In this document: one piece after another, positions 1-56,917 of the stretch
How the letters are laid out: each line of letters starts with the position of its first letter
How positions within the stretch are numbered: position 1 is the stretch's first letter
From: Terriglobia bacterium
GTDB taxonomy: Bacteria > Acidobacteriota > Terriglobia > 20CM-2-55-15
Assembly (NCBI GenBank): GCA_963664115.2
Contig: CAXWPJ010000011.1
Coordinates: 1 to 64,000, forward strand
Direction of reading: 5' to 3'
DNA: 64,000 bases
The notes under the pieces: model-generated
Told to the model about the DNA's origin: nothing
What the model saw: only the letters and a program-made list of their open reading frames with translations
Databases searched by the model: none
Made by a program: the position numbers and the translations under genes

Positions 1-891
1 ACCTGGATTCCGAAGATCACGTGTACCAGCCGCCCAACTCCCGCGGCTCTCAGGATCCCTACGATCTCGGCGCGCTGCTCCAGTCGGGGTTTGGAAGTCG
101 CGTCCGATCGCTCGAAGCCGGAACCGGGGGACCCGACCCGCTATTTCAGCCCGTGGGCGGCATGATGGAGATCCCTCTGGCGTTCCAGCGTGCTCTCGGC
201 GACCGGATCACACTGGAAGCCGAAGTGAAGACGATTCGCCAGACAGGCGATGGCGTTCGAGTAGTCTACCGAGAGACGAGAACCGGCACCGAGCGGGAGG
301 AGACCGCCGATTACTGCGTCTGCTGCCTGCCGATGGCCGTCATGAGAAGGAATCGACGCGAACCTGTCGGCCGAGATGACCCAAGCCGTGAATGACAGCC
401 GTCACAGTACGAGCGCCAAGATGGGATTGCAGATGAGGCGGCGCTTCTGGGAAGAGGACGAGGGGATCTTCGGTGGGCACCTTTGGACACGGAGTCTCCA
501 GCTCGGAGAGTTTTCCTACCCTTCGAACGACTTTTTTACCCAAAAGGGCGTTCTCCTCGGCTTTTACGGTAATGGCGAGATGGCGGATCTGGCGGACATG
601 CCTCTCGAGGCCCGAATTGATCACGTGCTTACCTATGCGGGCAAGGTGCATCCTCAGATGCGCGAAGAATTCGAGAGCGCATACTGTGTTTGGTGGGAAA
701 AAGTTCCGTACAGCCTGGGCGCCTACCACAGCACCCCGCGTGGAGCGCATCTGGAACAACTCAGCAAGGCCGATGGTCGGATCTATATGGGATGTGCGGG
801 CGCCAGTTCGCGTCCGGCGTGGCTCGAAGGCGCCATCCAAGCTGCCTGGAGGACGGTCGAAATGTTGCACGAGAGGGTAATGCAGGAATAG
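1..891 (+). pseudogene. Flavin monoamine oxidase / L-amino acid oxidase family, C-terminal part; 5' end outside window, frameshift near 345
   Basis: Two consecutive ORFs (QPVGGM...ADYCVCCLP, then AKMGLQ...AWLEGAIQAA) together form one amine oxidase C-terminus. Confidence 0.75.
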
Positions 892-1099
892 TCGCCACAG
901 TGTTCTTTCAGTTTTCGTAGAGCGTGCACTCTGGGCGCTCTGACGAGCCTACCTCCTCAGTTCGACTATCCGTTTTGGTTCGAATGCGACCTTCAACATT
1001 GCCGGATATACGCTGCGGGGCATAACTACAGTGATCTAGAACTCGATAGCAACGGAACATTCCGCAAATGCCAATTCTCAACGTCCGACAAGATGATCT

Positions 1100-1467
1100 A
1101 TGAAAGGGGATGTCAAGAGAAACAGCTCCCCGATGGCCGGCCAGGCGGACACTTTTGTCGTGACAGCCAGCCCCTCTACCGTTATGTGAAGCCCTGGTTC
1201 CGGCAATCCGCAGCGAAATCGTACATCTTTAAGACGGTCGATTCAGAAACTGAACAGCAGATGGGACGGCATGTGCCGACCATGGATCTATCTGAGCCTC
1301 GAAGGCTATCGCTGTTTCAGGTCGTGCGAGGGGGGATAGAGATTTAAAAGTGTCCTCTGGACGTATCCAGGGACCACATCTTGTGCAGATCCTCACCCTC
1401 GATCCTCAGTTGTTCCGACTCCGTCTAACGACTCAGTACGGCTCTACCGGTCACGGATCGAAACGGC
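1100..1467 (-). ncRNA. Predicted bridge/seek RNA in the downstream non-coding region of IS1111-A
   Basis: 370-bp non-coding region after the transposase; minus strand has ACAAGATG and TAAATC either side of a hairpin, matching the two target halves. Confidence 0.65.
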
Positions 1468-2532
1468 TTATGTTGTCATCCAGCTCAGTTTCTTTGGATC
1501 GAACGATTCTCCTTTCTTCCAAAGCGTCAGCACCAGCGCGGCGATCTTGCGGGCCAGAGTGACCCGCGCCATTTCCTCCCGCATCCCACGCATCTGGAGA
1601 CTCTCCAGATAAATCCGATACGGCTCGCTTTGTTTTCCCGATGCCGCGGCTGAGAAGAACACCGACTTCAATCGCCGGTTGCAGTTCGCATTCAATCCGC
1701 GCGTGGCCACCGGTTTCCTCCGTCGCACCACACGTCCACTCTGCATCTCATACTCCGCGCTCATGTGGGTCACCACACCCAGGCCACTGTAGCTCCAGAA
1801 CTGCGGTGTCGTGCGGAATCGGTACGGCGTGTCCACGATGGCGACGATCTGTGCCGCCCGAACCGGTCCCAGTTGTGGAATGGTCTCGAGCAGTTTCACC
1901 GCCTCATGGTGCCGGCCCTCCACTCGCACCGCTTTTCTGGATTGTTTCCGCAGCAACTGGACCTGGTCCAGTTCCGCATACAACCATCGGGCGCGCTGCC
2001 TCATCCCCGGCTCGGTCAGCTTCTCCAACCACTGTTCGCGCTGACTCGGCCGATAGACTCCGTCCTTCGGTGTCGGGATCCCCCGTCCCCGGTATATCGC
2101 TTTGATCCGCGACATCACCCGTTGCGTGTCCAACTGGAACGTGTCATAGGCCTGCACCAGTTGCTTCAATTCTCGCGTCGCTTCATGGCCGTGATACACC
2201 GAGCGCAACAGTCCCACCCGCAACAGCTCGGCCAGCTTCCGCGCATCCGGCTTATCCCCCTTCGACCCTTCTTGCATCCACTTGTTCTGTCGCGGATCGC
2301 ACACCACCACCTCGCTCACCCACGGCCGGATCACTTCCGATAACCAGCCCGCTTGCGTGGTCTCCTCCAACCCCACGTGCATCGGCCCACTCAATCCCTC
2401 CAGCAGCCGTGTGATACTCCCCGCCTCGGTTTCCACGATCGTTTCAAACACCAGTTTGCCGCTCCCGTCTCTCACCGCAACCACCGTCGTTGCCTGGTGC
2501 ACATCCATACCCATATACTTGTCTTGTTTCAT
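1468..2532 (-). CDS. IS110 family transposase/recombinase
   Basis: N-terminal GMDVH, E and DxxDA DEDD motifs; IPQLGP and YSGLG C-terminal motifs. Confidence 0.93.
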   Translation of the reverse strand: MKQDKYMGMDVHQATTVVAVRDGSGKLVFETIVETEAGSITRLLEGLSGPMHVGLEETTQAGWLSEVIRPWVSEVVVCDPRQNKWMQEGSKGDKPDARKLAELLRVGLLRSVYHGHEATRELKQLVQAYDTFQLDTQRVMSRIKAIYRGRGIPTPKDGVYRPSQREQWLEKLTEPGMRQRARWLYAELDQVQLLRKQSRKAVRVEGRHHEAVKLLETIPQLGPVRAAQIVAIVDTPYRFRTTPQFWSYSGLGVVTHMSAEYEMQSGRVVRRRKPVATRGLNANCNRRLKSVFFSAAASGKQSEPYRIYLESLQMRGMREEMARVTLARKIAALVLTLWKKGESFDPKKLSWMTT

Positions 2533-2804
2533 CTCGAACGCTCCTTTTCTGGGATCAACGCTGTATACGTTGATCAGGTTGTTGAGTGAGTCTTCTCTCA
2601 ACAACCCCCAGTCTAGGGGCGTCCTTTCATACTGCGATTTAACAGGACTTGAGAATGGATTTCGGAGATGGACAGGTCTGCCATCCGACTCTGTTGGGAT
2701 GGCATGATTCACGAGCCCATGCAGCGTTGACGTAGACAAAGATTGACATGCAGTACATTCTTCGTTTTCATGTGACCTACCTCAAGGGAATCGGAGGGAA
2801 AGAC

Positions 2805-3848
2805 ATGCTGGACCGAATTGCGACACGACGGAAACGGGTTAGAAGGAGGCTCCTCTTTGGTGGCCTTGCGATGGCTGGTGTCTTCTTTAGTTGGCCCGTC
2901 GTCGTGTCCGCTCACCATTCCGTTGCTGGTTACGTCGACGAAATCACTGAAGCGGTAGGCGAACTCGTGGCTTTAGAGTGGAGAAACCCACACATTAGGA
3001 TCGCTGTAAAAACGATGAATACCAACGGTGAGGAAGAGATTCGGATCATGCATGGAAATTCTATTTATAACTTGCAGCGCCAAGGTATAACCCAAGACTT
3101 GTTCACAATAGGCGAGCGTGTGAGGGTGGCCGGTAGGAGATCGAGTCGCGACGAGCTGGACTTTCTCGCCACCAACATTTTGTTTACAGATGGGCGTGAG
3201 GTATTGCTCTGGCCAACCCAGCCTCGATGGTCGGAAGAGATACTTGGCGGTCGAGATTTGTTGGCTGAACGTGGGCTGAACGGCGACGGTGAGGGAATTT
3301 TTCGCGTCTGGAGTGTTCCACGTGGACGTGCTCGTCGAGTAGTTACCCACCTGCCCTTTCAGGAATCCGCGATTGCTGCAAGGGAGTCATGGGACATGTT
3401 CGACAATTTCGCGATCCGTTGCGAACCGGAAGGCATGCCGAGAATCATGACCAATCCGCATCCTTTCGAGTTCATCGATCATCGGGATCAGATTACGCTG
3501 AGGACCGAGTTTTACGACATTGAGCGGACGATCCATCTGAATCGATCCGAGGCCCCTCCCAACGAACCCGCTTCAAGGCTGGGTTACTCGGTAGGAGAAT
3601 GGCAAGAGGGAACCCTGGTCGTTAGAACCAGTCGAATCAACTGGCCCTTCTTCGACACCATCGGTACGCCACAAAGCGAGGCAGTCGAAATCGTGGAACG
3701 GTTTACCGTGAGCAACGATCAGAGCCGCCTGGATTTCCAAATAACAGTAACTGACCCGCAAACCTTCACCGAACCCGCAACCATCGAGGGTTATTGGCTG
3801 GCTCTTGGAGATTCGATTCCGATCTACGATTGTCAAACGGATCAATGA
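2805..3848 (+). CDS. Secreted DUF6152-like protein
   Basis: Signal peptide then AHHS...WRNPH motif; long open ORF. Confidence 0.7.
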   Translation: MLDRIATRRKRVRRRLLFGGLAMAGVFFSWPVVVSAHHSVAGYVDEITEAVGELVALEWRNPHIRIAVKTMNTNGEEEIRIMHGNSIYNLQRQGITQDLFTIGERVRVAGRRSSRDELDFLATNILFTDGREVLLWPTQPRWSEEILGGRDLLAERGLNGDGEGIFRVWSVPRGRARRVVTHLPFQESAIAARESWDMFDNFAIRCEPEGMPRIMTNPHPFEFIDHRDQITLRTEFYDIERTIHLNRSEAPPNEPASRLGYSVGEWQEGTLVVRTSRINWPFFDTIGTPQSEAVEIVERFTVSNDQSRLDFQITVTDPQTFTEPATIEGYWLALGDSIPIYDCQTDQ

Positions 3849-3904
3849 TGGAGGTGGGCTGAGGTCACGGCTTCGTGAGGAGGGCCACTTAACCCCCTTT
3901 AGAA

Positions 3905-3944
3905 TTCTCAAGGTCCGAGAAGATGATTTATCAGGACTTGAAAA
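3905..3944. repeat. 40-bp palindromic repeat copy
   Basis: ttctcaaggtccgagaagatgatttatcaggacttgaaaa. Confidence 0.9.
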
Positions 3945-4028
3945 CAGATTTCAGGCTTTTGAGGGGATAGAACGCCGCTTCACGGCACCGGCAGTAGCGT
4001 GTCCGAAGGCTAGAGAATATCCGAAGCA

Positions 4029-5120
4029 TCAATCGGTCAGGAAGTGATACATGCCGAGGACGTTCTCGTCGACCCAATCGAAGTCCCCCCAGTGACTGTA
4101 CTCTTCCATCTTGATGTCTCGTTGCATGTCCTCCAGTGTCTGGCCCGAAGCGATGCCGGCGGCAACCTCGTCTCGGAGTGTTTCGAAGTACTCTCGCCAC
4201 GCTCTGACGTCTTCCCGGGTGCCCACCGGCCCGTGGCCTGTCGCAACGAACTCAAAGTCTGCCGCTAGCTCCTCCGTTTGACTGATAGCAGCCATCCACT
4301 CTTCGAACATCCCGAGTTCGTAGTCCATCTCCCTGTTCGGAAGCCGCCCGAACGAGACATAGTCGACGATCAACATCACGCTGTCGTCTGGAAAGGTGAT
4401 CATGCTCGAGTCCTTCGAGTGATTCATCTCGCCAACCCAGGTCAGGTTCACCCGTTTTCCGCCCAAGTTGATCTGAAACTCGTCTGTATAGGTGATATCA
4501 GGAGGACGCACAAAGCTAATTGGTCCGCGCACAACCTCCGCGCCGCTGAGCACGCCGTCCTCGTTCGCGTCGAATCCTTCGAACTGGCTCTGGCTCGAGC
4601 CGGCGAAGCGCTGGAGGTCCGCAGGTGTCTCACTTTCCTCAACCACTCCGTTGCCGTTGGTATCCAGCGCCGCCACGGGCTCGTACTGCCCAACGACTTG
4701 CGAGAGCGTGGTAGACGCTGGCGGCATCGCCAGGTACGAGAGCATGTTGGCATGACCCACAAACCGGGCCGTATCCGCGAAGACGTCCCCGCCGGAGGCA
4801 TGGTCCCAGTGGTAGTGGCTGTAGACGACGTATCTGACCGGGACCCCGAACCGAGCGGCGAACTCCTCCTTCAGCCACATCGAGAATTCAATGTTGATCG
4901 GATCCGCCAAGACGATGCCTTCCGGCGTGACCAGGAAGACGGTGCCGTGGTTGTTGCTCATAGCCCTGTAGACGCCGCCGGCGATGTGCTCAATCGTCCA
5001 TCGCGTTGCCTCGGTGGGCGACGAACGCCTCAACTCAGGCGTCTGGCCAAAGCCCCCTGACGCGAGCACCAGCGCTGCGACCAAAACCGCCAGAATCACG
5101 CTTGTCGTACTGCTACGCAT
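4029..5120 (-). CDS. Secreted metallo-beta-lactamase-fold hydrolase with inserted EF-hand-like loops
   Basis: SHYHWDH, HS and GHG motifs; DTNGNGVVEESE and DANEDGVLSGAE loops. Confidence 0.85.
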   Translation of the reverse strand: MRSSTTSVILAVLVAALVLASGGFGQTPELRRSSPTEATRWTIEHIAGGVYRAMSNNHGTVFLVTPEGIVLADPINIEFSMWLKEEFAARFGVPVRYVVYSHYHWDHASGGDVFADTARFVGHANMLSYLAMPPASTTLSQVVGQYEPVAALDTNGNGVVEESETPADLQRFAGSSQSQFEGFDANEDGVLSGAEVVRGPISFVRPPDITYTDEFQINLGGKRVNLTWVGEMNHSKDSSMITFPDDSVMLIVDYVSFGRLPNREMDYELGMFEEWMAAISQTEELAADFEFVATGHGPVGTREDVRAWREYFETLRDEVAAGIASGQTLEDMQRDIKMEEYSHWGDFDWVDENVLGMYHFLTD

Positions 5121-5445
5121 TCGCTTCTCCTTACTAGCATTTACTGGCCGCCTCGACTTCGGTTTGTTTATAGCGGAGAGTGACGGCAGTGAGGTACAGC
5201 CAGAACGTGAGGGCTAGAACGGCATACAGAGAATCCACATCGAGGCTTGTGAACGCACTTAGGAGCAGAGCTGCAACCCAAACAACGACTATGGCTTTAC
5301 GCATGCTTTCCACTGGCCACACCTCGGAGAAATCTTAGCACGCCTCACGCAACTCAACAGCGACTCCGCCCACCGCCTCGGTTCCAAGTTGTTGATTTTG
5401 GGGGATGACTCGGCAGGCTCGGTTGATGCCGGCCTAGGTTGTAAA

Positions 5446-5485
5446 AGTTCAACGTCCGAGAAGATGATTTCTCAGGACTTGACCA
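5446..5485. repeat. 40-bp palindromic repeat copy with mismatched outer arms
   Basis: ttcaacgtccgagaagatgatttctcaggacttgacc. Confidence 0.9.
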
Positions 5486-5494
5486 AGCAAATCT

Positions 5495-5905
5495 ACGACA
5501 CCGTCAGCGCTCTGATAGTTGTCAGACCCCGCTTGTTCCGCTTATCCGCTCAACATGGGCAAGTTCACCAACTGGCTGGACGCGGGGCGGGTCGTGCTGA
5601 ACACGTTCCGGCTGTACGCCGAGTTCAACGGCACGCTGACGCCCATCACCGACAACGAGGCGTTGCGGGTGGCAACCGACGAGTACAACGCCATCGTGCG
5701 GGCAAGGGCATGAACGGTCAGCCCATACGCCGGACCACACCTTCGATCAGCTCACCATCGTCTGCTTCGCAGCCCAGTGGGTGGCGATGACGTCTGTCTG
5801 CTGACTGACAGGAAGCACATGTGCACTCTGGTGAAAAAGTATCCTCGATCGATCAACTTGCCAATGCCAGCAGAAGCTATTGCGGGTCAAGGGACGCCGC
5901 GTAAG
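5495..5905. repeat. 411-bp segment duplicated in inverted orientation at 33479-33889
   Basis: Direct comparison; near-identical ORF translations at both sites. Confidence 0.9.
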
Positions 5906-6923
5906 CAACAAGGTACAGCAAGTCTTCCGTACTGAGATCGGCAACGACCGGCGTCATCAGCTCAGACCACAGTCCCTTACGCGTGCCCTGCTGCATGTCA
6001 TACAACGCCCGCATGAGGTAACTGGCAGACCGACCCGCGATTCCAGGCAAGGGGCCGAGACCCTTCAGACCTGGACCGTGACAGATACTGCACTGCCCGG
6101 CCTCGGCCAATGCCCTACCCTTCTCGACCGCACCAACCGGAACATAAGCGATCCAGCCGGACCTCGGATTACGGTGCACCTCTGCGTGCTCGATATTCTC
6201 CGGGGTTTCAACGATACGCAGCCCGATCGGTTCAGTGCCCGACGTAGCAGCAGTAGCCTGGCACTCCGTGAAGATGTCGATTTCACAGTCCACTGGGAGA
6301 TAAATGCCCCCCAGCGTGTAGCTCTCGAATACGGTGTCGGTCTCCACGACCCGGACCCATGGCCTCCAAGGCTGTGCGCCGAAGTACTCGGCAGCAGCAA
6401 CGATCTCCTCTTCGGTCATGTTCTTCGCGATTTGGGTCATCGTCCGAGCGTTGTTCTTTCTCGGTTCTGAGCTATTCCTCAGATCGTTGCGAAAATCGTC
6501 CATCTGCTGGATGAAATACGAAACCGGTAAGCCCGCGACGCCAGCGTTCTCCGGGCGCCCCTGCCCATTGGGGTAGTGACAAAGCGCACACGCCCGCACG
6601 ACAGCGCCCTCCTCTGCCGTCCGACCGTTCGCAACGATGTCAGGCATCGGCGTTGGATGGTCGTCGGGATACCAGTCGGCGGGAGAGCGACCGCGAATCT
6701 GGGTGGCCGTGAACGTCCGGTCAGTATCGGGCAAGCTGAAGACCGTCCCATCCTCTTCCGGACGGGGAGGACGCGGCCCCAATGGGATGCCATAGGCCCA
6801 ATCAGGTCGCTCAGTCTGCACCAATGCTTGGCCGTTAGCCGATTGCTCGCTCTGGGCGCTCAATACGCCAACAACAACCACGGGCATCGCCAACAAGACA
6901 ACGAAACCTAGAATTTTCTGCAT
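5877..6923 (-). CDS. Di-heme cytochrome c4-like protein
   Basis: CALCH and CSICH heme motifs; signal peptide. Confidence 0.88.
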   Translation of the reverse strand: MQKILGFVVLLAMPVVVVGVLSAQSEQSANGQALVQTERPDWAYGIPLGPRPPRPEEDGTVFSLPDTDRTFTATQIRGRSPADWYPDDHPTPMPDIVANGRTAEEGAVVRACALCHYPNGQGRPENAGVAGLPVSYFIQQMDDFRNDLRNSSEPRKNNARTMTQIAKNMTEEEIVAAAEYFGAQPWRPWVRVVETDTVFESYTLGGIYLPVDCEIDIFTECQATAATSGTEPIGLRIVETPENIEHAEVHRNPRSGWIAYVPVGAVEKGRALAEAGQCSICHGPGLKGLGPLPGIAGRSASYLMRALYDMQQGTRKGLWSELMTPVVADLSTEDLLYLVAYAASLDPQ

Positions 6924-7121
6924 GACGTCCCTCCCTCCTGCTACTCCTTGCTACACGGCACTCCGCAGAACCGCGACCGGCATTGACAGGTTGATCCTAG
7001 CACGGCCATCGAGTCCCGTCCGAAGTGTATCAGCCTCGTCCCGACCTTGCCGAGATCAGTCCCATGACCATGGCCCGTTCTCAACCCAAATTGCCTCGAT
7101 CGCATCAGGCACGGTCATCCA

Positions 7122-7385
7122 GGTACTGTCAACTTACGGGTCCAAAGGTCGAACCTGTGCCAGATCGGCGCCGCTCGATCAGCCTACCGAGACCGCATTC
7201 CAAGTCGCAAAGGAACGGGCCCGAAGCATCTGGTGGTGAACCGCTTTTAGTCTGTGCCTTCCCAACGGGAAAAGATTCAGAACGACACCGTGAACTGAGA
7301 GGAAGAGTTGCGCCTGCCGTGGCGACTTGAACCGTCGCATCTGTCGCTCCCGTTGTCGGGTCGGTTGGTGTGGCCGTGCGGGCAC
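7122..7385 (-). pseudogene. IS6-family remnant: transposase C-terminus plus terminal inverted repeat
   Basis: HQPTRQRERQMRRFKSPRQAQ motif; GGTACTGTCAACTT end at 7122-7135. Confidence 0.75.
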
Positions 7386-7504
7386 TTCAAATCTGAGGAT
7401 GTTGTGGACACTGTCCGGGGAGGTTGAGCGAGAAGCGTGAGGGTCCTGAGAACCCGTTGAAGCAGCAAACGAAAAGTCCGAGCGCCTTTAACAGCTCTTC
7501 GCGA

Positions 7505-7544
7505 AGGTCAATGTCCGAGAAGATGATTTATCAGGACTTTACCG
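7505..7544. repeat. 40-bp palindromic repeat copy (GGTCAA arm type), next to a kinase-tail repeat at about 7551-7600
   Basis: ggtcaatgtccgagaagatgatttatcaggactttacc. Confidence 0.85.
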
Positions 7545-7643
7545 CGAAAATCAGAGAATCGGCACCCGTTCTTTTAGTTCTTCAAACCAACGTCAGGCTG
7601 TTTTATACGTTCACGTTCGCAGCTCCAACGCTCACCTCGAAGA

Positions 7644-7865
7644 TTACGAATTCTTCTGGTATGGAGATACCTTCGCCGCACTGTAATCAGAGCGATGCCC
7701 GCATTCAGATTCGCTGCAGGTGAGAAACAGCTGTGCCAGCGGCTCGAACGGACCGCGTCCTTCGGTTCGATCCAGACCGAACAAAATCGGCGAGTGGCAT
7801 TTCGCACAAAGCACACTCAAGTACCATCGCTTCTCAGTCGATTTTGGAAATCGGGAAAACTGCAT
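7644..7865 (-). CDS. Small putative Zn-ribbon protein, paralog of 43743-43994
   Basis: RWYLxVLCxxCxSPILF...LTCxxxECG..DYS shared by both copies. Confidence 0.7.
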   Translation of the reverse strand: MQFSRFPKSTEKRWYLSVLCAKCHSPILFGLDRTEGRGPFEPLAQLFLTCSESECGHRSDYSAAKVSPYQKNS

Positions 7866-7890
7866 AAGCACACGGTTTTGGAGGATCGCG

Positions 7891-8142
7891 CAATTCTCAA
7901 CGTCCGACAAGATGATTTCTCAGGACTTGAGAATGATTTTCACCTCTTTTGCCGGCCCCGCCAGCTGCAGCGGCTTGTTAGGCCCCAAACGTGGACCTCG
8001 ACCACCCGTGGAGCCTGGAGCGCCAGCGGAAGGCCGTCCACTGCATCCCGTGTTAGGCAATATTATTTTGCCCAAACAAGTTCATTGAGAATCGATACTC
8101 TGAGTAGGGCATGGCTCCATCTGTCATATTCCGAGTATCCCC
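7891..8142 (-). pseudogene. Inverted duplicate of the GNAT unit 3' end (55272-55523), cut off by IS256
   Basis: 252 bp near-identical; one end at the repeat, the other at the IS256 inverted repeat. Confidence 0.88.
7894..7933. repeat. 40-bp palindromic repeat copy
   Basis: ttctcaacgtccgacaagatgatttctcaggacttgagaa. Confidence 0.92.
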
Positions 8143-9527
8143 GAGTTATAACCGAATCTGGTGTTTGAGGGATTGAATAAGAGCGGCGTATCTGGTTGAT
8201 TTGTTGTGACAAAACTTCAAAGCAACCATAGGAGATACGCCACTGTGAGCAAGAGTAACGTGAATGGACCGGAAGGTCGAGAAACGATTGAGGATCCAGT
8301 AACAGAACTACTACGAGTTGGGGCACAGCAACTGATCCAACGCGCAGTGGAAGCCGAATTGGCAGAGCTGCTATCCCAGCACGGTGGCCGGCGAACTGAG
8401 ACAGGAAACGCCGGGGTGGTACGCAACGGTTATCTGCCGGAACGCGAACTGCAGACGGGATTGGGTCCGGTAACAGTCCAAATCCCGAAGGTCCGTGCCA
8501 AGACGGGCGAAGCTGTGACGTTCCGATCGGCCCTGGTACCACCGTACATTCGGAAGACGAAGTCGCTGGAAGCAGCGGTGCCGTGGTTGTATTTGAAAGG
8601 CGTTTCCAGCGGCGAGATGGGTGAGGCCCTAAAAGTTCTTGTCGGTCCCCAGGCGCAGGGTCTGTCGGCGAGCACGGTATCGCGGTTGAAACAGGTTTGG
8701 GGCGAACAGTACCGCCTCGGATGCGAGGAGCGTTTGGATGCAGATCGCTGGGTCTATGTCTGGGCCGACGGCATCTACAGCGGACTTCGGGCGGAACAAA
8801 CCAAGTTGTGTGCATTGGTCGTGATCGGCGTGAATGAACGCGGAGAGAAGCGTTTCCTGGCGATCGAAGACGGTGTACGGGAATCGACACAGAGTTGGCG
8901 CGAGGTCTTGTTGAAGCTGAAGTCCCGTGGGATGAATGTTCCGAAGTTGGCCATCGGTGACGGTGCGATGGGGTTCTGGGCCGCACTGGAGGAAATCTAT
9001 CCCGAGACACGTCAACAACGTTGCTGGATGCACAAAGTCATGAACGTCCTCAACTGCCTGCCCAAGTCGGTCCAGGCGAAGGCGAAACAGGCCCTGCACT
9101 CGATCTGGCAGGCCGAGACGAAGGCAGACGCCGAGAAGGCATTCGACTTGTTCATTGAAACCTATGAACCGAAGTATCCGAAAGCCACACTCTGCCTGCA
9201 GAAAGACAGAGAGGAACTGCTGGCCTTTTACGACTTTCCGGCCAAGCACTGGCAGAGCATCAGAACGACGAATCCCATTGAGTCGACCTTTGCCACCATT
9301 CGACACCGAACGAAGCGATCCAGAGGTTGCCTGACACGGGATGGCATGCTGCACATGATGTTCAAACTGGGCCAGTGCGCTGAGAACAATTGGCGACGAT
9401 TACGAGGATTCGATGATCTGAGCAAGGTAATCATCGGAGTGAAATTCAACGATGGTGTCGAAGCGACACAAGTCGATCAGGCCGCCGCTTGAATCAATCT
9501 CCTAAACACCACTTTTGACAATAACTC
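8143..9527 (+). mobile_element. IS256 family copy 1 (transposase 8206-9492), no target duplication
   Basis: GAGTTAT... terminal inverted repeats; Mutator-type DDE motifs (WADG, IGDG, QRCWMH, TNPIES). Confidence 0.95.
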
Positions 9528-17461: not shown

Positions 17462-17501
17462 GGCTCAAGTCCTGAGAAATCATCTTGTCGGACGTTGAGA
17501 A
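17462..17501. repeat. 40-bp palindromic repeat copy
   Basis: ctcaagtcctgagaaatcatcttgtcggacgttgagaa. Confidence 0.92.
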
Positions 17502-19538: not shown

Positions 19539-19683
19539 ACTGGTTTGAAGAACTGAAGGAACGTGTGCCGGTGCCGTAGTTTTCCTGGTCAAGTCCTGAG
19601 AAATCATCTTCTCGGACGTTGAGAACCCCCGTTTTTAGGCCTTTTCTCACTGTCCGAGAAGGTCCTTTATCAGGACCTGAGCT
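19529..19683. repeat. Kinase tail (19529-19579), repeat (19586-19625) and an inverted degenerate repeat (19644-19683)
   Basis: Direct sequence match to both repeat families. Confidence 0.85.
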
Positions 19684-21119: not shown

Positions 21120-23057
21120 ACCGGGTCGCCAGAGGCGGTCACCCGCCTCCGGCTCCCACAGAACGTAGCGTGCGGATTTCCCGCACTACGCTCTTCAGAA
21201 ACGGATTCACAACACAGCAAGAGACTGGAACTCCCGATACGGAAGCGCCAGCTTGGGCCGCTGCAACGGAAAGCGCGTCTTAATCCGGTTGAATACCTCC
21301 CACCGGACGTAACCAGCGCGACTCCGGCTGCTCAGCATCTTGCGCCAGTAACGCTCCACGACCCGAGCAACGTGCTGGAGGGCCCGGAAGTTTCCGGCGA
21401 TGCCGTAGTAGGCGTAGTGACCACGCAAGACCCGATTCAGATTCTGAACCTGCTCCCGGACCGGCAAGTGACGCATTCGTCTCATCAGATCGCGTAGATG
21501 GGCCAGACTGCGTTGAAGTCGAGACTTCTCAGTGCGCAATCCCACCCGGAAATTGCCTTTGCGATTCTGCGAGCAGTACAGGGTCATGCCCAGAAAGTAG
21601 ATCGTTTCTGGACGTTTTCTCCCGTGCTTGCCCGCATCCCGCTGAGCAAAGCGACCGAATTCAACGAGCTTTGTCTTTGTCGGTTCCAGAACCAGCCCAA
21701 ACTTTCCCAATCGCTTGCGCAGCACGTTCTGAAAACGAAGCGCATCGTCCCAATATTGGAAACACACCACAAAGTCGTCGATGTACCGCACCAGATAGGC
21801 TTCACCTTTCAGGTGTGGCCGGACCATCCGGTCAAACCACAGGTCGAGCACATAGTGCAGGTACAGATTGCTCAGCAGAACGCTGATCGACCCACCCTGT
21901 GGGGTTCCCTCATCGTTGGGATGCAATTCTCCGTCTTCGAACACCCCCGCCTTCAACCATCGTCGAATCAGGCTGATGATCCGCGGATCTCCGACTCGAT
22001 GCTCCACAAAGCGGAGTAGCCATCCATGGTCTAAACTCCCGAAAAAGTTCTTCAGGTCTGCCTCCAACACCCAACTCACCTTGCGCCCAGCAATCACCTC
22101 ATGCAGGGTTGCCAGTGCATAGTGCGCACCCAGCCCAGGCCGACCACCAAAAGAACAAGGCAAGAAGTCCTGTTCGTAGATGGCTGTCAGCACCTCGGCC
22201 ACGCTGCGCTGAAGGGCCCGATCTTGAACACAAGGCACGCCCAGGGGACGTTTCTCCTGTTTGCCGGGCTTGGGGATATACACTCGCCGAATCGGCGGTG
22301 CGCGATATCCCTTCCGGTGTACCGATTCGAGCATCGGCTCCACCCAGTCCCCGAATTCTTCCTTCGCCTCCGGCACTCTCTGGCCATCACATCCGGGAGC
22401 AGAGTTCCGTGGAATCGCACAAAGGCTCTTCCACACCCTCTCTCGGGTGACATGATGCGCCAGCGATGTGAACCGGAGCTTGGGTTCACTCCGAGCTTTC
22501 GCTGCTATTTGTTCCAGTTTCGTTTCCATGACTGGCAGTTCCTCTCGTTGTATAGAGGGCCGAATCCTCCCATTGAATGGAGCCCCTGTTTCCCTTGAAC
22601 AATTCCTCTTCCGCTGACCGCTTCCCCATGTGATCGGTTCTCCCGACCTCGGAGTACTATCAGTCAGTCTGACTTCCGCCAGGCCTTCGGGTTGTCCTCA
22701 CGTTGTGGGCTTGTCCAACCCTACAAGCTCCGCTTGAGCCTGACGGATCTCCCTTGTTCCCATGAAATCTCTCAGTTATATGCCGGCGGTACGAACCCCG
22801 GAAGCACCCCAGAACGCTTGCCATTGCACGCCCTGCGATTCCGCCTTCCCCATAGAGAGACAAGGTCGGCTACTTCAACCACGATCGATTTCGGGGCTAT
22901 CTTTCCGTTCACTTGCGTTCCGGCCTACTCCCTCCCTGTCTACGCTTCGCAGTGACCGTTACCGGCCCCCACGCAAGACTCGGTTCGTGGCTGCGGGCTA
23001 AGCTTTGCCACGGGCGCCATTTCAGGCGACTAGACTTCATGCGCTTTCAAGGCGCAA
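21120..23057 (-). mobile_element. Inner RT-encoding group II intron
   Basis: Starts TTGCG; D5 GAGCGTAGTGCGGGAAATCCGCACGCTACGTTC and D6 follow the ORF. Confidence 0.88.
21207..22529 (-). CDS. ltrA: Group II intron reverse transcriptase/maturase without an endonuclease domain
   Basis: RPLGVP, GTPQGG, RYIDDF, domain X (LRGHYAYY). Confidence 0.93.
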   Translation of the reverse strand: METKLEQIAAKARSEPKLRFTSLAHHVTRERVWKSLCAIPRNSAPGCDGQRVPEAKEEFGDWVEPMLESVHRKGYRAPPIRRVYIPKPGKQEKRPLGVPCVQDRALQRSVAEVLTAIYEQDFLPCSFGGRPGLGAHYALATLHEVIAGRKVSWVLEADLKNFFGSLDHGWLLRFVEHRVGDPRIISLIRRWLKAGVFEDGELHPNDEGTPQGGSISVLLSNLYLHYVLDLWFDRMVRPHLKGEAYLVRYIDDFVVCFQYWDDALRFQNVLRKRLGKFGLVLEPTKTKLVEFGRFAQRDAGKHGRKRPETIYFLGMTLYCSQNRKGNFRVGLRTEKSRLQRSLAHLRDLMRRMRHLPVREQVQNLNRVLRGHYAYYGIAGNFRALQHVARVVERYWRKMLSSRSRAGYVRWEVFNRIKTRFPLQRPKLALPYREFQSLAVL

Positions 23058-23516
23058 CCCCGCGCAGATCCGTACGTGCGGATACTGCATACGGCTCCTA
23101 CTTCGGATGAATAGCGGTACACACGACGTACCGCACACCGCACAACCCCTGCGTCACGAAGAGCCCGCTCTGAGTCGGGATCGTGGGGAATTCGAACGAT
23201 GTTCTCCTCGGTCCGCGGCCTTCCCTCCCCCTCCTCCGCCGAGTACGGGGCCTCTTTGTTCGGCCGGTTAAAAGGTACAACGACGCGGTCAGACTTCTCC
23301 CGGGCGTACACGTCCGTCGTGCGGACTTGGCCTTCACGGACCGGTCTGGATCGTGCGACCCAGACACCCAGGAGATCTCCCGGATCTCGCGCATGTTGTT
23401 TCTCAGCGTGCGCGTCGTGTTGCCTTCCCCTTATCACGAGAGAGTCGGCATCCTTAGCACGGGTCTTAGACTACCGAGGACCGACAGACCATTTGCGATT
23501 TAACGCAGCCTATGGA

Positions 23517-24228: not shown

Positions 24229-24322
24229 GTCCTGAACTGGTTTGATGAACTGAAGGAACGGGTGCCGGTCCCCTGATTTTCGAGGTCAAGTCCTGAGAAA
24301 TTACCTTCTCGGACATTGAGAA
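24229..24322. repeat. Kinase tail (24229-24276) plus palindromic repeat (24283-24322)
   Basis: gtcctgaactggtttgatgaactg...ccctga then ggtcaagtcctgagaaattaccttctcggacattgagaa. Confidence 0.88.
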
Positions 24323-28798: not shown

Positions 28799-28968
28799 AG
28801 GAAAATCTCCTGTGTGGTGCTCGTTACGTGCGCGAGTTCTTCGGAGCGAATCTATAACTGTTGTGGACCGATTTCAAGGAGTTTTGACCCAGCCCCCGCA
28901 GGGTGTTTAAACAGCCGAAGGTGTTGGTACCCTGTAAATCGGCAATTCTCAACGTCCGACAAGATGAT

Positions 28969-30509
28969 CTATGAAAGGGGATGTCAAGAGAAACAGCTCC
29001 CCGATGGCCGGCCAGACGGACACTTTTGTCGTGACAGCCAGCCCCTCTACCGTTATGTGAAGCCCTGGTTCCGGCAATCCGCAGCGAAATCGTACATCTT
29101 TAAGACGGTCGATTCAGAAACTGAACAGCATATGGGACGGCATGTGCCGACCATGGATCTATCTGAGCCTCGAAGGCTATCGCTGTTTCAGGTCGTGCGA
29201 GGGGGGATAGAGATTTAAAAGTGTCCTCTGGACGTATCCAGGGACCACATCTTGTGCAGATCCTCACCCTCGATCCTCAGTTGTTCCGACTCCGTCTAAC
29301 GACTCAGTACGGCTCTACCGGTCACGGATCGAAACGGCTTATGTTGTCATCCAGCTCAGTTTCTTTGGATCGAACGATTCTCCTTTCTTCCAAAGCGTCA
29401 GCACCAGTGCGGCGATCTTACGGGCCAGAGTGACCCGCGCCATTTCCTCCCGCATCCCACGCATCTGGAGACTCTCCAGATAAATCCGATACGGCTCGCT
29501 TTGTTTTCCCGATGCCGCGGCTGAGAAGAACACCGACTTCAATCGCCGGTTGCAGTTCGCATTCAATCCGCGTGTGGCCACCGGTTTCCTCCGTCGCACC
29601 ACACGTCCACTCTGCATCTCATACTCCGCGCTCATGTGGGTCACCACACCCAGGCCACTGTAGCTCCAGAACTGCGGTGTCGTGCGGAATCGGTACGGCG
29701 TGTCCACGATGGCGACGATCTGTGCCGCCCGAACCGGTCCCAGTTGTGGAATGGTCTCGAGCAGTTTCACCGCCTCATGGTGCCGGCCCTCCACTCGCAC
29801 CGCTTTTCTGGATTGTTTCCGCAGCAACTGGACCTGGTCCAGTTCCGCATACAACCATCGGGCGCGCTGCCTCATCCCCGGCTCGGTCAGCTTCTCCAAC
29901 CACTGTTCGCGCTGACTCGGCCGATAGACTCCGTCCTTCGGTGTCGGGATCCCCCGTCCCCGGTATATCGCTTTGATCCGCGACATCACCCGTTGCGTGT
30001 CCAACTGGAACGTGTCATAGGCCTGCACCAGTTGCTTCAATTCTCGCGTCGCTTCATGGCCGTGATACACCGAGCGCAACAGTCCCACCCGCAACAGCTC
30101 GGCCAGCTTCCGCGCATCCGGCTTATCCCCCTTCGACCCTTCTTGCATCCACTTGTTCTGTCGCGGATCGCACACCACCACCTCGCTCACCCACGGCCGG
30201 ATCACTTCCGATAACCAGCCCGCTTGCGTGGTCTCCTCCAACCCCACGTGCATCGGCCCACTCAATCCCTCCAGCAGCCGTGTGATACTCCCCGCCTCGG
30301 TTTCCACGATCGTTTCAAACACCAGTTTGCCGCTCCCGTCTCTCACCGCAACCACCGTCGTTGCCTGGTGCACATCCATACCCATATACTTGTCTTGTTT
30401 CATCTCGAACGCTCCTTTTCTGGGATCAACGCTGTATACGTTGATCAGGTTGTTGAGTGAGTCTTCTCTCAACAACCCCCAGTCTAGGGGCGTCCTTTCA
30501 TACTGCGAT
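28969..30509 (-). mobile_element. IS1111-A copy 2 (transposase 29339-30403), in a repeat split into 28946-28968 and 30510-30526
   Basis: Same ends, core and insertion position as copy 1. Confidence 0.93.
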
Positions 30510-30532
30510 TTATCAGGACTTGACCTCGTAAA

Positions 30533-39570: not shown

Positions 39571-39779
39571 ATCCTTCCCGCCTTGGGGAGTGATTCGCAA
39601 ACGCCGCCCAGCAGGCTGACCGGAATCAGGGCACACATAGTCTAGTCGTTGTAACTTAAAATTAACCTCTCTGGCATCATATCAATGCGAGGCGGATAAG
39701 CGGTATAAGCAGGGTCTGACGACTATGGTAGCGCTGACAGTGTCGTAGATTTGCTTGGTCAAGTCCTGTATCTGGACTC

Positions 39780-41369: not shown

Positions 41370-41409
41370 TTCTCAATGTCCGAAAAGATGATTTATCAGG
41401 CGTTGAGAA
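41370..41409. repeat. 40-bp palindromic repeat copy
   Basis: ttctcaatgtccgaaaagatgatttatcaggcgttgagaa. Confidence 0.88.
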
Positions 41410-53328: not shown

Positions 53329-54772
53329 GAGTTATTGTCAAAAGTGGTGTTTAGGAGATTGATTCAAGCGGCGGCCTGATCGACTTGTGTCGCTTCGACA
53401 CCATCGTTGAATTTCACTCCGATGATTACCTTGCTCAGATCATCGAATCCTCGTAATCGTCGCCAATTGTTCTCAGCGCACTGGCCCAGTTTGAACATCA
53501 TGTGCAGCATGCCATCCCGTGCCCAGTTTGAACATCATGTGCAGCATGCCATCAGCCGTCGCGTTCGGGGGCTTCTCTTCCAGTGCAACCTCTGGATCGC
53601 TTCGTTCGGTGTCGAATGGTGGCAAAGGTCGACTCAATGGGATTCGTCGTTCTGATGCTCTGCCAGTGCTTGGCCGGAAAGTCGTAAAAGGCCAGCAGTT
53701 CCTCTCTGTCTTTCTGCAGGCAGAGTGTGGCTTTCGGATACTTCGGTTCATAGGTTTCAATGAACAAGTCGAATGCCTTCTCGGCGTCTGCCTTCGTCTC
53801 GGCCTGCCAGATCGAGTGCAGGGCCTGTTTCGCCTTCGCCTGGACCGACTTGGGCAGGCAGTTGAGGACGTTCATGACTTTGTGCATCCAGCAACGTTGT
53901 TGACGTGTCTCGGGATAGATTTCCTCCAGTGCGGCCCAGAACCCCATCGCACCGTCACCGATGGCCAACTTCGGAACATTCATCCCACGGGACTTCAGCT
54001 TCAACAAGACCTCGCGCCAACTCTGTGTCGATTCCCGTACACCGTCTTCGATCGCCAGGAAACGCTTCTCTCCGCGTTCATTCACGCCGATCACGACCAA
54101 TGCACACAACTTGGTTTGTTCCGCCCGAAGTCCGCTGTAGATGCCGTCGGCCCAGACATAGACCCAGCGATCTGCATCCAAACGCTCCTCGCATCCGAGG
54201 CGGTACTGTTCGCCCCAAACCTGTTTCAACCGCGATACCGTGCTCGCCGACAGACCCTGCGCCTGGGGACCGACAAGAACTTTTAGGGCCTCACCCATCT
54301 CGCCGCTGGAAACGCCTTTCAAATACAACCACGGCACCGCTGCTTCCAGCGACTTCGTCTTCCGAATGTACGGTGGTACCAGGGCCGATCGGAACGTCAC
54401 AGCTTCGCCCGTCTTGGCACGGACCTTCGGGATTTGGACTGTTACCGGACCCAATCCCGTCTGCAGTTCGCGTTCCGGCAGATAACCGTTGCGTACCACC
54501 CCGGCGTTTCCTGTCTCAGTTCGCCGGCCACCGTGCTGGGATAGCAGCTCTGCCAATTCGGCTTCCACTGCGCGTTGGATCAGTTGCTGTGCCCCAACTC
54601 GTAGTAGTTCTGTTACTGGATCCTCAATCGTTTCTCGACCTTCCGGTCCATTCACGTTACTCTTGCTCACAGTGGCGTATCTCCTATGGTTGCTTTGAAG
54701 TTTTGTCACAACAAATCAACCAGATACGCCGCTCTTATTCAATCCCTCAAACACCAGATTCGGTTATAACTC
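53329..54772 (-). mobile_element. IS256 copy 4, disrupted by a net 59-bp composite insertion
   Basis: 1444 bp versus 1385 bp; ORF diverges after KRSRGC. Confidence 0.92.
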
Positions 54773-54806
54773 AGTCCTGAGAAATCATCTTGTCGGAAGT
54801 TGAGAA
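54773..54806. repeat. Palindromic repeat copy clipped by IS256
   Basis: agtcctgagaaatcatcttgtcggaagttgagaa. Confidence 0.88.
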
Positions 54807-54857: not shown

Positions 54858-55361
54858 ATGAACTGCGAAACGATCAGACGAGCGTACAACTCTGATTCCC
54901 CACGGATAATTTCGCTCATAGCCGACGTCTATCGAGAGTACGGCGACGAGATCTATCTAGAAGGAGCGGACAAGGATCTAGTTGATATTGAAGGATATTA
55001 CCGACAGGTAAGCGGGGATTTTGTCATATTGGAAAGGAATGACGAAATCGCAGGAACGCACGCCGTACTCCCGCTTGACCTAGCGAACCGCGTCATAACC
55101 TTCAGACGGCTGTACCTTCGGCAGGAGTTGCGTGGGTCGGGTTGCGGAAAGCGGTTGATGAAATGGGCAATCGATTGGTCGATGCGCGAAGGCTATCACT
55201 CAGTAGAGTTTTGGTCTGACATACGATTCCAACGGGCACACAGGTTCTTTCAGCAATTAGGTTTCACGAAAGGGGATACTCGGAATATGACAGATGGAGC
55301 CATGCCCTACTCAGAGTATCGATTCTCAATGAACTTGTTTGGGCAAAATAATATTGCCTAA
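54858..55361 (+). CDS. GNAT N-acetyltransferase
   Basis: RRLYL..ELRGSGCGK motif A; AHRFF..LGF. Confidence 0.88.
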   Translation: MNCETIRRAYNSDSPRIISLIADVYREYGDEIYLEGADKDLVDIEGYYRQVSGDFVILERNDEIAGTHAVLPLDLANRVITFRRLYLRQELRGSGCGKRLMKWAIDWSMREGYHSVEFWSDIRFQRAHRFFQQLGFTKGDTRNMTDGAMPYSEYRFSMNLFGQNNIA

Positions 55362-55480: not shown

Positions 55481-55520
55481 TTCTCAAGTCCTGAGAAATC
55501 ATCTTCTCGGACGTTGAGAA
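55481..55520. repeat. 40-bp palindromic repeat, consensus copy
   Basis: ttctcaagtcctgagaaatcatcttctcggacgttgagaa. Confidence 0.95.
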
Positions 55521-55567
55521 TTGGATTTCACCACTTTTCGGGACCAATCACCACAGCTAGTGACCAT

Positions 55568-55930
55568 ATGAGCCTATCCAGCGCGACCCCTATTCTTAGA
55601 ATCTTCGACGAAGCAAAAGCGAAGGAATTCTATGGCTCTTACTTGGGGTTTTCCGTGGACTGGGAGCATCGGTTTGGTGATGAGTTCCCTCTGTACATGC
55701 AACTGTCCAAAGATAACTGCGTCCTTCATCTTTCCGAACACCACGGCGACGGGACGCCAGGGAGCGCGATTCGCATCGAAACTGATGACGTTGGTGCTTT
55801 GAATCAAGAACTACTGGACAAGGCCTATCGATACGTGAAGCCAAGCGTCGAAGAGAAACCGTGGAACACAAAAGAGATGACGATCACCGATCCGTTTGGC
55901 AATCGATTGATCTTTTTCGAGAACGAATAG
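55568..55930 (+). CDS. Glyoxalase/bleomycin-resistance superfamily protein
   Basis: EFY..YLGF.VDWEHRF, HLSEHHGD, DPFGNRL. Confidence 0.88.
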   Translation: MSLSSATPILRIFDEAKAKEFYGSYLGFSVDWEHRFGDEFPLYMQLSKDNCVLHLSEHHGDGTPGSAIRIETDDVGALNQELLDKAYRYVKPSVEEKPWNTKEMTITDPFGNRLIFFENE

Positions 55931-55942
55931 CCCTGAAATCCG

Positions 55943-55982
55943 TTCTCAAGTCCTGAGAAATCATCTTCTCGGACGTTGAACT
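55943..55982. repeat. 40-bp palindromic repeat copy
   Basis: ttctcaagtcctgagaaatcatcttctcggacgttgaa. Confidence 0.93.
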
Positions 55983-56005
55983 CCAGACTGGTACTCTCTT
56001 CAGTA

Positions 56006-56917
56006 ATGCCTACCGGTAAACCTTGGCTACCTGAGCATATCGTGATGCCAGATGCGGCCGTTCGTCTGATCGAAAGCCAATTCCCGGAGCTTCGACCTGC
56101 GCATATCCAACTTCTAGGTGAGGGTTGGGACAATACGGCCTACGTAGTGAACAGGACTTGGGTTTTCCGGTTTCCTCGCCGAGAGATAGCGGTGGAACTG
56201 CTGCAGACGGAAACTCGCGTCCTTCCTCGAATTGCAGCTCAGTTGCCTTTCCCTATCCCAGTACCAAGATGGGTTGGTAAGCCAACACAAGAGTATGATT
56301 GGCCGTTTGCGGGCTATCGCTTTCTTCCAGGCACCACGGCACTGAGTGTTGGATTGACGCGAGAGCAGAGGAAGGAACTTGCTGCTCCCTTAGCGAATTT
56401 CTTAGCAACTCTACATGCCATTGATCCGGGAGATCTGGAAATTCCGGGAGATAAATTTGGCCGAGCTGACATGGGAAAACGTATTCCACAGTTGCTCTCA
56501 AGTCTTCTGACGATTCGAGGAAAGGGATTGGTTGCTGACGTTTCACCTTGGGAACGGATCGTTGAACAGATGTCATCGGACTTTCAACCGCGGTTGAACA
56601 CATTGTCACACGACGATTTTTCAGCGGAGCATATCCTTGTGGACAACTTTGGACTGCCAAGCGGCGTGATTGACTGGGGCGACATCCACCTAGGAAGCCC
56701 CAGTATGGATTTGGCTATTGCGTTCGGTTTTCTGCCACCCGAGGGTCGCGAAGTATTTTGGGATAGCTATGGAGCCGTCGAAAAGCCGATCCAAATCATG
56801 GCGCGATTTCGTGCTCTCCACGCCGCCGTCATTGGTGTCCTATATGGCGATGATATTGGCGACACTGCTCTCCTGCGCGAGAGCTTATTGGGGATGGACT
56901 TCGCGATAGAGTCGTGA
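56006..56917 (+). CDS. Aminoglycoside phosphotransferase (APH) family kinase
   Basis: GEGWDN, VFRFPR, HDDFSAEHIL, IDWGD. Confidence 0.88.
   Translation: MPTGKPWLPEHIVMPDAAVRLIESQFPELRPAHIQLLGEGWDNTAYVVNRTWVFRFPRREIAVELLQTETRVLPRIAAQLPFPIPVPRWVGKPTQEYDWPFAGYRFLPGTTALSVGLTREQRKELAAPLANFLATLHAIDPGDLEIPGDKFGRADMGKRIPQLLSSLLTIRGKGLVADVSPWERIVEQMSSDFQPRLNTLSHDDFSAEHILVDNFGLPSGVIDWGDIHLGSPSMDLAIAFGFLPPEGREVFWDSYGAVEKPIQIMARFRALHAAVIGVLYGDDIGDTALLRESLLGMDFAIES

What the first reader, a model, noticed from the sequence alone, without database searches (positions are those of the whole stretch)
7891..8142. A duplicated gene segment ends at the repeat, suggesting the repeat is a recombination boundary
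Seen: 7891-8142 is a near-identical inverted copy of 55272-55523. Similarity stops 3 bp past the repeat. Beyond it the next gene is a Zn-ribbon ORF in one copy and a glyoxalase in the other. Inference: the same unit has two different neighbours across the site, as expected for cassette reshuffling.
Basis: partly seen in the sequence, partly recalled or inferred. Interest (0 to 1): 0.78.

Follow-up and report, generated by a model that had tools for sequence, protein, structure and literature searches.

The report
Recombination-site gene cassettes in Acidobacteria
The duplicated piece is the end of a small acetyltransferase gene unit that sits beside three different neighbours, in this and a related genome, at a 34-base site repeated about 170 times here; a Xer-like recombinase likely shuffles such units, in a way that resembles but differs from integrons and Acinetobacter dif modules.

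Summary
The duplication is real (250 of 252 bases). Only one end lies at the repeat; the other is an IS256 insertion into a GNAT acetyltransferase gene. The repeat is a polar 14-6-14 dif-like site with 169 copies in this acidobacterial genome, in two spacer classes (GATGAT; TGTCGT/GGTCGT). It bounds a 714-bp GNAT cassette found beside a Zn-ribbon-like ORF, a glyoxalase and, in another species, a third neighbour. Marker bases place the two exchanges around the intact copy in intervals that contain the spacer. 25 of 190 duplication ends fall on sites, which cover 0.25% of the genome. A Xer-like tyrosine recombinase gene here lies between two sites. In two distant Terriglobia its homologues sit inside modules bounded by one site of each class, so it is the likely enzyme, perhaps with XerC. 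Against this: the gene was not found in two site-rich relatives, arm variants are only loosely tied to their flanks, and no read spans the junctions. It works like Acinetobacter dif modules but fails their tests and the attC tests. My searches found no description in print. This scan noted a similar system before in other genomes.

The parts
7891..8142 (.). Duplicated block: site + 110-bp intergenic stretch + last 90 bp of the GNAT gene, cut by IS256
   Evidence: 250 of 252 identical to 55272-55523
7897..7930 (+). Class A (GATGAT) 14-6-14 site between the Zn-ribbon-like unit and the GNAT unit
8053..8142 (-). 3' remnant of the GNAT acetyltransferase gene
   Evidence: maps to 55272-55361 of the intact gene
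8143..9527 (+). IS256-family element; left flank is the GNAT target, right flank is unrelated DNA (no target duplication)
   Evidence: NF033543 306 bits; flanks
7644..7910 (-). Zn-ribbon-like ORF in a 389-bp site-to-site unit; a 95.5% copy on C10 has other neighbours
7508..7541 (+). Class A site followed by a short remnant of a kinase-propeller gene 3' end
5449..5482 (+). Class A site (array member)
3908..3941 (+). Class A site; ends a 1289-bp DUF6152 unit also found on C2 with other neighbours
1078..2652 (+). Class A site split in its spacer by an IS110 element (about 1098-2638)
17465..17498 (-). Class A site
19589..19680 (.). Back-to-back doublet: class A site (19589-19622, minus) and class B-like site (19647-19680, plus), spacers 58 bp apart
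24286..24319 (-). Site with an atypical spacer (GGTAAT) after a kinase-gene 3' remnant
41373..41406 (+). Class A site; its class B partner about 148 bp away is interrupted by a second IS110 (about 39770-41230)
53329..54772 (-). IS256 copy that truncates the outer end of the site at 54773; no target duplication
54773..54803 (-). Class A site at the start side of the intact GNAT cassette; left arm as on C6, right arm of another type
54858..55361 (+). Intact GNAT acetyltransferase gene (167 aa), cargo of the 714-bp cassette
   Evidence: PF00583 E 8e-14
55484..55517 (-). Class A site joining the GNAT cassette to the glyoxalase unit
55568..55930 (+). Glyoxalase-family gene in a 462-bp site-to-site unit
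   Evidence: PF19581; spacing
55946..55979 (-). Class A site
55976..56917 (+). APH-family phosphotransferase ORF; a copy on C12 has another neighbour across the site
   Evidence: PF01636
58374..58407 (-). Class A site closing the array

Best explanation
The 252-bp block is the IS256-truncated end of a 714-bp acetyltransferase cassette bounded by polar 14-6-14 sites, and such cassettes are likely moved by crossovers within these sites, catalysed by an Acidobacteria-wide Xer-like tyrosine recombinase (gene at C5:52190-53140), possibly together with host XerC. Shown: the site, its copy number, its two spacer classes, its orientation grammar, cassette ends at sites, and three neighbours for this cassette. 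Inferred: sites recombine only within their spacer class. One class B site and one class A site facing each other bound a module (originally often a Ser/Thr kinase-propeller gene), which would allow cassette exchange as with heterospecific lox sites. Direct class A repeats would give integron-like excision and reinsertion. The intact copy at 54.8-55.5 kb fits insertion of a GNAT circle into the site beside the glyoxalase. IS256 entered the other copy, and an IS-mediated rearrangement likely replaced its remainder.
For: 169 sites at 20 bits or more, against none at 14 bits or more in a shuffled genome; 129 of 169 share one spacer. Adjacent direct pairs are A-A in 81 of 82 cases; inverted pairs are A+B in 33 of 40. 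Duplication ends fall on sites. Four-point marker test: at the glyoxalase junction, position -3 follows the glyoxalase and +25 follows the GNAT unit; at the other junction, -9 and -3 follow the GNAT unit and +8 does not, an interval of about 11 bp around the spacer. G001, another species, carries the same cassette (98%) between the same two sites with a third neighbour. The recombinase gene has sites 129 bp upstream and 93 bp downstream and an intact R-K-H-R-H-Y set (read from the alignment). Related sites lie in 7 of 58 windows next to homologous genes, against 4 of 153 distal windows and 0 of 70 next to xerC/xerD (p 0.002). In G175 and G223 the gene lies inside an A-to-B module, and G223 has two more modules without it. 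In those genomes the pattern matches only 1 and 4 places genome-wide. The same two classes (spacers ending GAY or CGT) recur among 29 hits in 20 wider loci, against 1.4 after shuffling.
Against: The recombinase family was not found in G002 (105 sites, 97% complete), G003 (67 sites), G004 or G102, even with a profile, and G001's copy is broken. Most homologue loci have no site within 250 bp (14 of 20), and 0 matches were found genome-wide in 2 of 5 genomes tested. Arm variants show little linkage to either flank over 127 sites (0 of 24 and 0 of 27 position pairs for the left arm; 1 of 24 and 0 of 27 for the right arm). Among close pairs the left arm follows the left flank in only 4 of 7, and the right arm follows the right flank in 3 of 5. 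In the Zn-ribbon pair the differences run on about 55 bp past the spacer into the kinase remnant. So not all exchanges are confined to the spacer. The +8 allele in the marker test is the commonest one. No excised circle or reciprocal junction was seen, and no contig bridges a site.
Confidence: 0.58

Rival explanations
1. The sites are pdif-like and are recombined by the host XerC and XerD alone; the extra recombinase is a passenger or a relic.
For: XerC and XerD are the only tyrosine recombinases seen in all of G000, G002 and G003 among the loci given (27 of 27, 18 of 27 and 12 of 12). The left arm matches the XerC arm of the genome's own dif at 6.9 of 11 positions on average, and the spacer length is the same. 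All sites found are left|right hybrids.
Against: The right arm matches the XerD arm of dif at only 5.1 of 11 positions. The XerD recognition-helix region is similar in site-rich and several site-less genera. Right-arm-type sites cluster at the other recombinase's gene and not at xerC/xerD.
Confidence: 0.2
2. The sites were spread earlier by a recombinase, but present swaps, this one included, arise by homologous recombination or gene conversion between the 45-100 bp repeats (site plus kinase-gene remnant).
For: Weak arm-to-flank linkage; an exchange beyond the spacer in the Zn-ribbon pair; about half of class A sites carry a kinase 3' remnant that lengthens the homology (69 of 142); the enzyme was not found in site-rich relatives.
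Against: It does not explain the near-invariant spacer beside freely varying arm positions, the strict A/B orientation grammar, or the two exchanges mapping around the spacer.
Confidence: 0.14
3. The repeats are short non-canonical attC hairpins recombined as single strands by the genome's integron integrase.
For: The site folds into a bulged hairpin (z -2.4 to -4.8). The cargo (GNAT, glyoxalase, APH) is typical of cassettes, and 28 of 36 main ORFs point the same way relative to the site. An IntI gene exists (439 bits).
Against: No AAC/GTT box pair: the base needed at +15 is G in 1% of sites. No covariation of the -3/+8 pair (54 of 129 paired, about 56 expected by my arithmetic). No site within the 14 kb around intI. 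intI was not found in G003 or G004.
Confidence: 0.03
4. The repeats are REP/REPIN-like hairpins spread by a RAYT (Y1) transposase, and doublets are the mobile form.
For: Conserved back-to-back doublets of 58/59 and 148 bp (11). A RAYT-like gene is present in 5 of 5 genomes of the genus.
Against: No site within 1.5 kb of any Y1 gene in G001-G004, and one site near one of two in G000. Not found in the site-bearing genomes G007 and G017. No hairpin covariation.
Confidence: 0.03
5. One of the two copies is a misassembly through IS256 or through the repeat.
For: C6:1-46165 and C11:1-83160 share large blocks at about 99.8%, and several contig ends overlap other contigs, so strain variants may be mixed. 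Neither IS256 at the ends of the 46-kb middle segment has a target duplication.
Against: In runs X19 and X20 (two studies; one may be the source), contigs break at the IS point and the 252-bp part is about 1.7 times deeper than the rest of the gene; run X22 has the gene uninterrupted. The independent G001 assembly shows the same cassette ends.
Confidence: 0.02

Closest known systems
Acinetobacter dif modules / pdif (xrs) cassettes and chromosomal dif-module islands (PMC13141974, PMC12907356, bioRxiv 10.1101/2022.12.17.520857)
   Same: Polar two-arm sites with a 6-bp spacer bound small gene modules; rearrangements between sites with matching spacers; insertion sequences target the sites.
   Different: Arms extend to 14 bp or more and the right arm is unlike the host XerD arm. 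Most neighbours are direct repeats, not alternating inverted C and D modules. There are two fixed spacer classes, a dedicated recombinase gene is linked to the sites, and about 170 sites lie in 43 chromosomal clusters.
Integron cassette arrays and CALINs (attC, IntI)
   Same: Direct-repeat arrays of single-gene units with biased orientation and GNAT, glyoxalase and phosphotransferase cargo.
   Different: No RYYYAAC/GTTRRRY boxes (motif recalled), no hairpin covariation, exchange near the centre of the site, and no link to intI.
Cre/lox or Flp/FRT cassette exchange with heterospecific spacers (recalled)
   Same: Two site classes with like arms and unlike spacers flank a cargo.
   Different: Natural, with asymmetric arms and an inverted A/B arrangement; enzyme activity untested.
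Chromosomal XerC/XerD-dif
   Same: The left arm resembles the XerC arm of this genome's dif; the nearest solved relatives of the enzyme are XerA and XerD.
   Different: The true dif is a separate single site at C2:108118-108145, conserved in 5 of 5 relatives tested; the enzyme scores far below the XerC and XerD cut-offs.

Membership tests
Acinetobacter-type dif modules (pdif) | Two distinct arms separated by a 6-bp spacer, giving a polar site | tested here: met
Acinetobacter-type dif modules (pdif) | Arms match the host dif XerC and XerD binding sites | tested here: not met
   6.9 of 11 to the XerC arm, 5.1 of 11 to the XerD arm
Acinetobacter-type dif modules (pdif) | C and D modules alternate between inverted sites | tested here: not met
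   82 of 122 adjacent pairs within 8 kb are direct repeats; 40 are inverted
Acinetobacter-type dif modules (pdif) | Same module found with different neighbours at the site | tested here: met
Acinetobacter-type dif modules (pdif) | Recombination needs host XerC/XerD | not testable with these tools
   needs binding and reporter assays
Integron attC / CALIN | R'' (AAC) and R' (GTT) boxes at the outer ends | tested here: not met
   +15 is C in 97% of sites; -10 is free
Integron attC / CALIN | Hairpin pairing kept by covariation | tested here: not met
   54 of 129 paired at -3/+8, about 56 expected
Integron attC / CALIN | Direct repeats with genes oriented towards the site | tested here: met
   81 A-A direct pairs; 28 of 36 main ORFs, by a longest-ORF rule and with C6/C11 duplicates included
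Integron attC / CALIN | IntI linked to the array or present in all carriers | tested here: not met
REP/REPIN with RAYT | RAYT gene flanked by the repeat | tested here: not met
   1 of 18 Y1 loci has a site within 1.5 kb
REP/REPIN with RAYT | Conserved inverted doublets | tested here: met
   7 doublets at 58/59 bp and 4 at 148 bp
XerC / XerD proteins (for the candidate recombinase) | NCBIfam cut-off for TIGR02224 or TIGR02225 | tested here: not met
   127 and 123 bits against 335 and 330
Tyrosine recombinases (for the candidate recombinase) | PF00589 domain with catalytic R-K-H-R-H-Y | tested here: met
   96 bits; residues read from the alignment

The most novel reading that the evidence does not exclude
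A natural recombinase-mediated cassette-exchange system of Acidobacteriota. A dedicated Xer-like enzyme binds one arm, with XerC or itself on the other, and uses two non-interchangeable site classes. In this genus the system has expanded into about 170 chromosomal sites that shuffle single genes like an integron, by a double-stranded route, and has multiplied and fragmented a kinase-propeller gene family. The 3 bp next to the right arm are fixed by class across families while the other 3 bp vary, which would fit a single strand exchange resolved by replication, and so copying rather than moving of cassettes.
Probability: 0.45. Interest if true: 0.85.

Novelty: new variant of a known kind. Interest (0 to 1): 0.72.

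Why it matters
Gene-cassette shuffling is known from integrons and from Acinetobacter dif modules, which one 2026 paper calls unique to that genus (PMC13141974, abstract). This is a third arrangement in an uncultured lineage, with a named candidate enzyme, defined site classes and a mapped example exchange, so it can be tested directly. A recombinase with two natural non-interchangeable sites would also be a new tool for cassette exchange. Two IS110 elements that target fixed positions in the site give natural bridge-RNA target pairs.

Tried and rejected
Misassembly: short-contig runs show the interrupted and uninterrupted forms, but no contig has 31 or more bases on both sides of a site or of the IS junctions at 8142 and 9527, so these junctions are not confirmed by reads. 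Linkage mapping over all sites did not place the crossover. I first set the candidate recombinase aside because it was not found in G002 and G003, and took it up again; the gap remains. A lineage-specific change in the XerC or XerD recognition region was not seen. tRNA anchoring: 6 of 43 clusters have a tRNA within 6 kb. Viral contigs: no exact site match; one distant recombinase homologue, without a site. Circle-junction (right|right) or empty-target (left|left) sites: none clear in G000 or in the G002 stretches. Kinase-propeller genes outside the genus: no such site after the stop codon in the one locus per genome inspected. No structure or complex prediction was run. The Atlas search returned only generic integrase clusters.

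Full report
Observation. The block 7891-8142 matches the reverse complement of 55272-55523 at 250 of 252 bases, and a third copy lies on contig C6 of the same assembly. It holds a repeat, 110 bp of intergenic DNA and the last 90 bp of a GNAT acetyltransferase gene that is intact at 54858-55361. The end at 8142 is the left end of an IS256, one of 52 near-full-length copies. On C6 the same IS sits at the same point with a 9-bp target duplication and the rest of the gene behind it. In the window its right flank is unrelated DNA, so an IS-mediated rearrangement is inferred. Records of relatives that carry the site are titled Terriglobia, so the organism is taken to be an acidobacterium.

The repeat. 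Its consensus is TCAANGTCCGASAA GATGAT TTNTCAGGACTTGA, often extended by AATTC on the left. A profile finds 169 copies at 20 bits or more and none at 14 bits or more in a shuffled genome, in 43 clusters of up to 14. The spacer is GATGAT in 129 copies (class A) and TGTCGT or GGTCGT in 20 (class B). Over G000 and 77 sites from stretches of G002, the right half of the spacer is GAT in 197 and CGT in 29 of 246. Of adjacent pairs within 8 kb (masked elements subtracted), direct pairs are A-A in 81 of 82 and inverted pairs are A+B in 33 of 40. 69 of 142 class A sites follow the 3' end of a Ser/Thr kinase-propeller gene or a remnant of it, and 9 of 25 class B sites precede a kinase start. The pattern is found in 10 of 301 genomes of the class: the 5 of this genus, 4 of 5 of one sister genus and one other. 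Counts are 152 in G000, 105 in G002, 67 in G003, 13 in G001 and 2 in G004. It is not the chromosomal dif, which is a single separate site.

Is it a boundary? After masking high-copy elements, 95 duplications of 150 bp or more remain. Of their 190 ends, 25 are at a site, 42 at a masked element, 10 at contig ends and 113 elsewhere; sites cover 0.25% of the genome. Within 10 kb of a site, 30 of 117 distinct non-IS ends are at sites against 1% expected. These counts include C6/C11 repeats and are not fully independent. Three units are duplicated with both ends at sites: the GNAT unit (714 bp), the Zn-ribbon-like unit (389 bp) and a DUF6152 unit (1289 bp). In another species, G001, the GNAT unit is 98% identical, broken by several insertions, bounded by the same two sites, and has a third neighbour (found in 1 of 5 genomes searched).

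Where is the exchange? For the intact copy, the junction at 55484-55517 has the glyoxalase-side allele at -3 and the GNAT-side allele at +25. The junction at 54773-54803 has GNAT-side alleles at -9 and -3 and a different allele at +8. Both fit insertion of a GNAT circle into the site beside the glyoxalase with crossover in or next to the spacer. A plain inversion between the two facing C6 sites would give the first junction but would not change +8 at the second. The wider picture is looser. Arm variants are almost unlinked to flanks over 127 sites. In close pairs the left arm follows the left flank in 4 of 7 (baseline 9%, p 0.002) and the right arm follows the right flank in 3 of 5 (baseline 18%, p 0.047), but the right arm is also shared in 4 of 7 same-left pairs. 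In the Zn-ribbon pair the differences extend about 55 bp into the kinase remnant. Repeated exchanges, conversion or homologous recombination therefore also act.

Reads. Only Logan contigs were available. In X19 and X20 contigs break at the IS point and the 252-bp part is deeper than the rest of the gene (21 against 12; 31 against 19), while X22 has one uninterrupted 719-bp contig. X19 and X22 also hold contigs that continue past 9528 into other DNA without the IS. This argues for real strain variation, but no contig bridges a site, depth is no copy number, and one run may be the source of the assembly. C6 and C11 share large blocks at about 99.8%, yet the 46-kb middle of C11 holds the only rph gene. 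I cannot say whether they are strain variants or a segmental duplication.

The enzyme. Of 27 tyrosine recombinase matches in G000, one 316-aa gene (C5:52190-53140) lies between two class B sites. Its family is large (5155 hits among 8000 candidates) and present in 31 of 301 class genomes. It is neither XerC, XerD nor IntI by cut-off. A right-arm model built from the G000 sites scores 12 bits or more in 7 of 58 windows beside homologous genes, in 4 of 153 distal windows and in 0 of 70 beside xerC or xerD. In G175 and G223, of another family, the gene and one or two cargo genes lie between a GCCGAC site and a facing CGGCGT site, and G223 has two such modules without the gene. These genomes were picked because of the hit, but a strict pattern matches only 1 and 4 places in them. 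A wider look at 20 loci, most of them the same loci as, gave 29 hits (one counted on both strands) against 1.4 after shuffling, with spacers mostly ending in GAY or CGT; 6 of 20 had a site within 250 bp. Against this, the family was not found in G002, G003, G004 or G102, and is broken in G001. XerC and XerD are in all carriers checked, and the left arm is XerC-like, so a mixed or host-only reaction stays open.

Rivals tested. attC: hairpins form, but the boxes, the covariation and the link to intI fail. REP/RAYT: a RAYT-like gene tracks the genus but is not flanked by sites. IS110: two elements insert at fixed positions, 7 of 7 copies of one in the class A spacer and 9 copies of the other in the right arm. 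They are best read as parasites of the site, since their insertion breaks it.

Comparison with print. I read the abstract and introduction of PMC13141974, the abstract of PMC12907356, passages of bioRxiv 10.1101/2022.12.17.520857 and passages of PMC8138268 (no occurrence of 'Acidobacteria' in its main text); supplements were not opened, and the subgroup tables there may hold this recombinase family. The single-exchange, replication-resolved route comes from the search listing of PMC3442271 only. Searches returned no description of such sites in Acidobacteriota; subscription journals are mostly missing from that library. Three earlier notes of this scan on other genomes describe a similar system. 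I saw them after reaching this reading; they are unchecked and are not counted as support.

Verdict. The system works like dif modules with an integron-like array form, and belongs to neither family by the tests above. The identity of the enzyme is likely, not shown.

Noticed in passing
window 1078-2652, 28949-30523 and 39757-41262: Two different IS110 elements insert at fixed positions in the site, one in the GATGAT spacer and one in the right arm.
   Followed up: partly
whole genome G000: 99 kinase-propeller 3' ends (WFEELKERVPVP-like) but 29 kinase starts and only 4 reading frames of 860 aa or more: a heavily fragmented gene family tied to the sites.
   Followed up: partly
G000 C2, C9, C12: 7 sites have lost 3 bp of the spacer; possible slippage or IS110 excision scars.
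   Followed up: no
window 1-8142 and 55471-64000 against C6:1-46165: Large shared blocks at about 99.8%, and several contig ends that overlap other contigs, suggest mixed strain variants or segmental duplications.
   Followed up: partly
window 21120-23078: Group II intron with reverse transcriptase, with near-identical copies on C4, C5 and C10.
   Followed up: no
window 53522-53584: The IS256 copy at 53329-54772 is about 59 bp longer than the others.
   Followed up: no
L114 (G000:C9:708000-722000): A full integron integrase with no copy of this site within the 14 kb fetched; its own attC sites were not sought.
   Followed up: partly
L149 1398-2235 and L152: RAYT-like Y1 genes conserved in 5 of 5 genomes of the genus and 1 of 36 others.
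   Followed up: partly
L005-L010: Six identical copies of a 293-aa tyrosine recombinase, three of them within 1.5 kb of a site.
   Followed up: no
L274 near 5877 (G030): The site upstream of the recombinase homologue has two nearly symmetric arms, as a circle junction would.
   Followed up: no
L213 775-808: A site with spacer CGCGAC lies near the end of a short ORF that looks by eye like a serine recombinase N-terminus.
   Followed up: no
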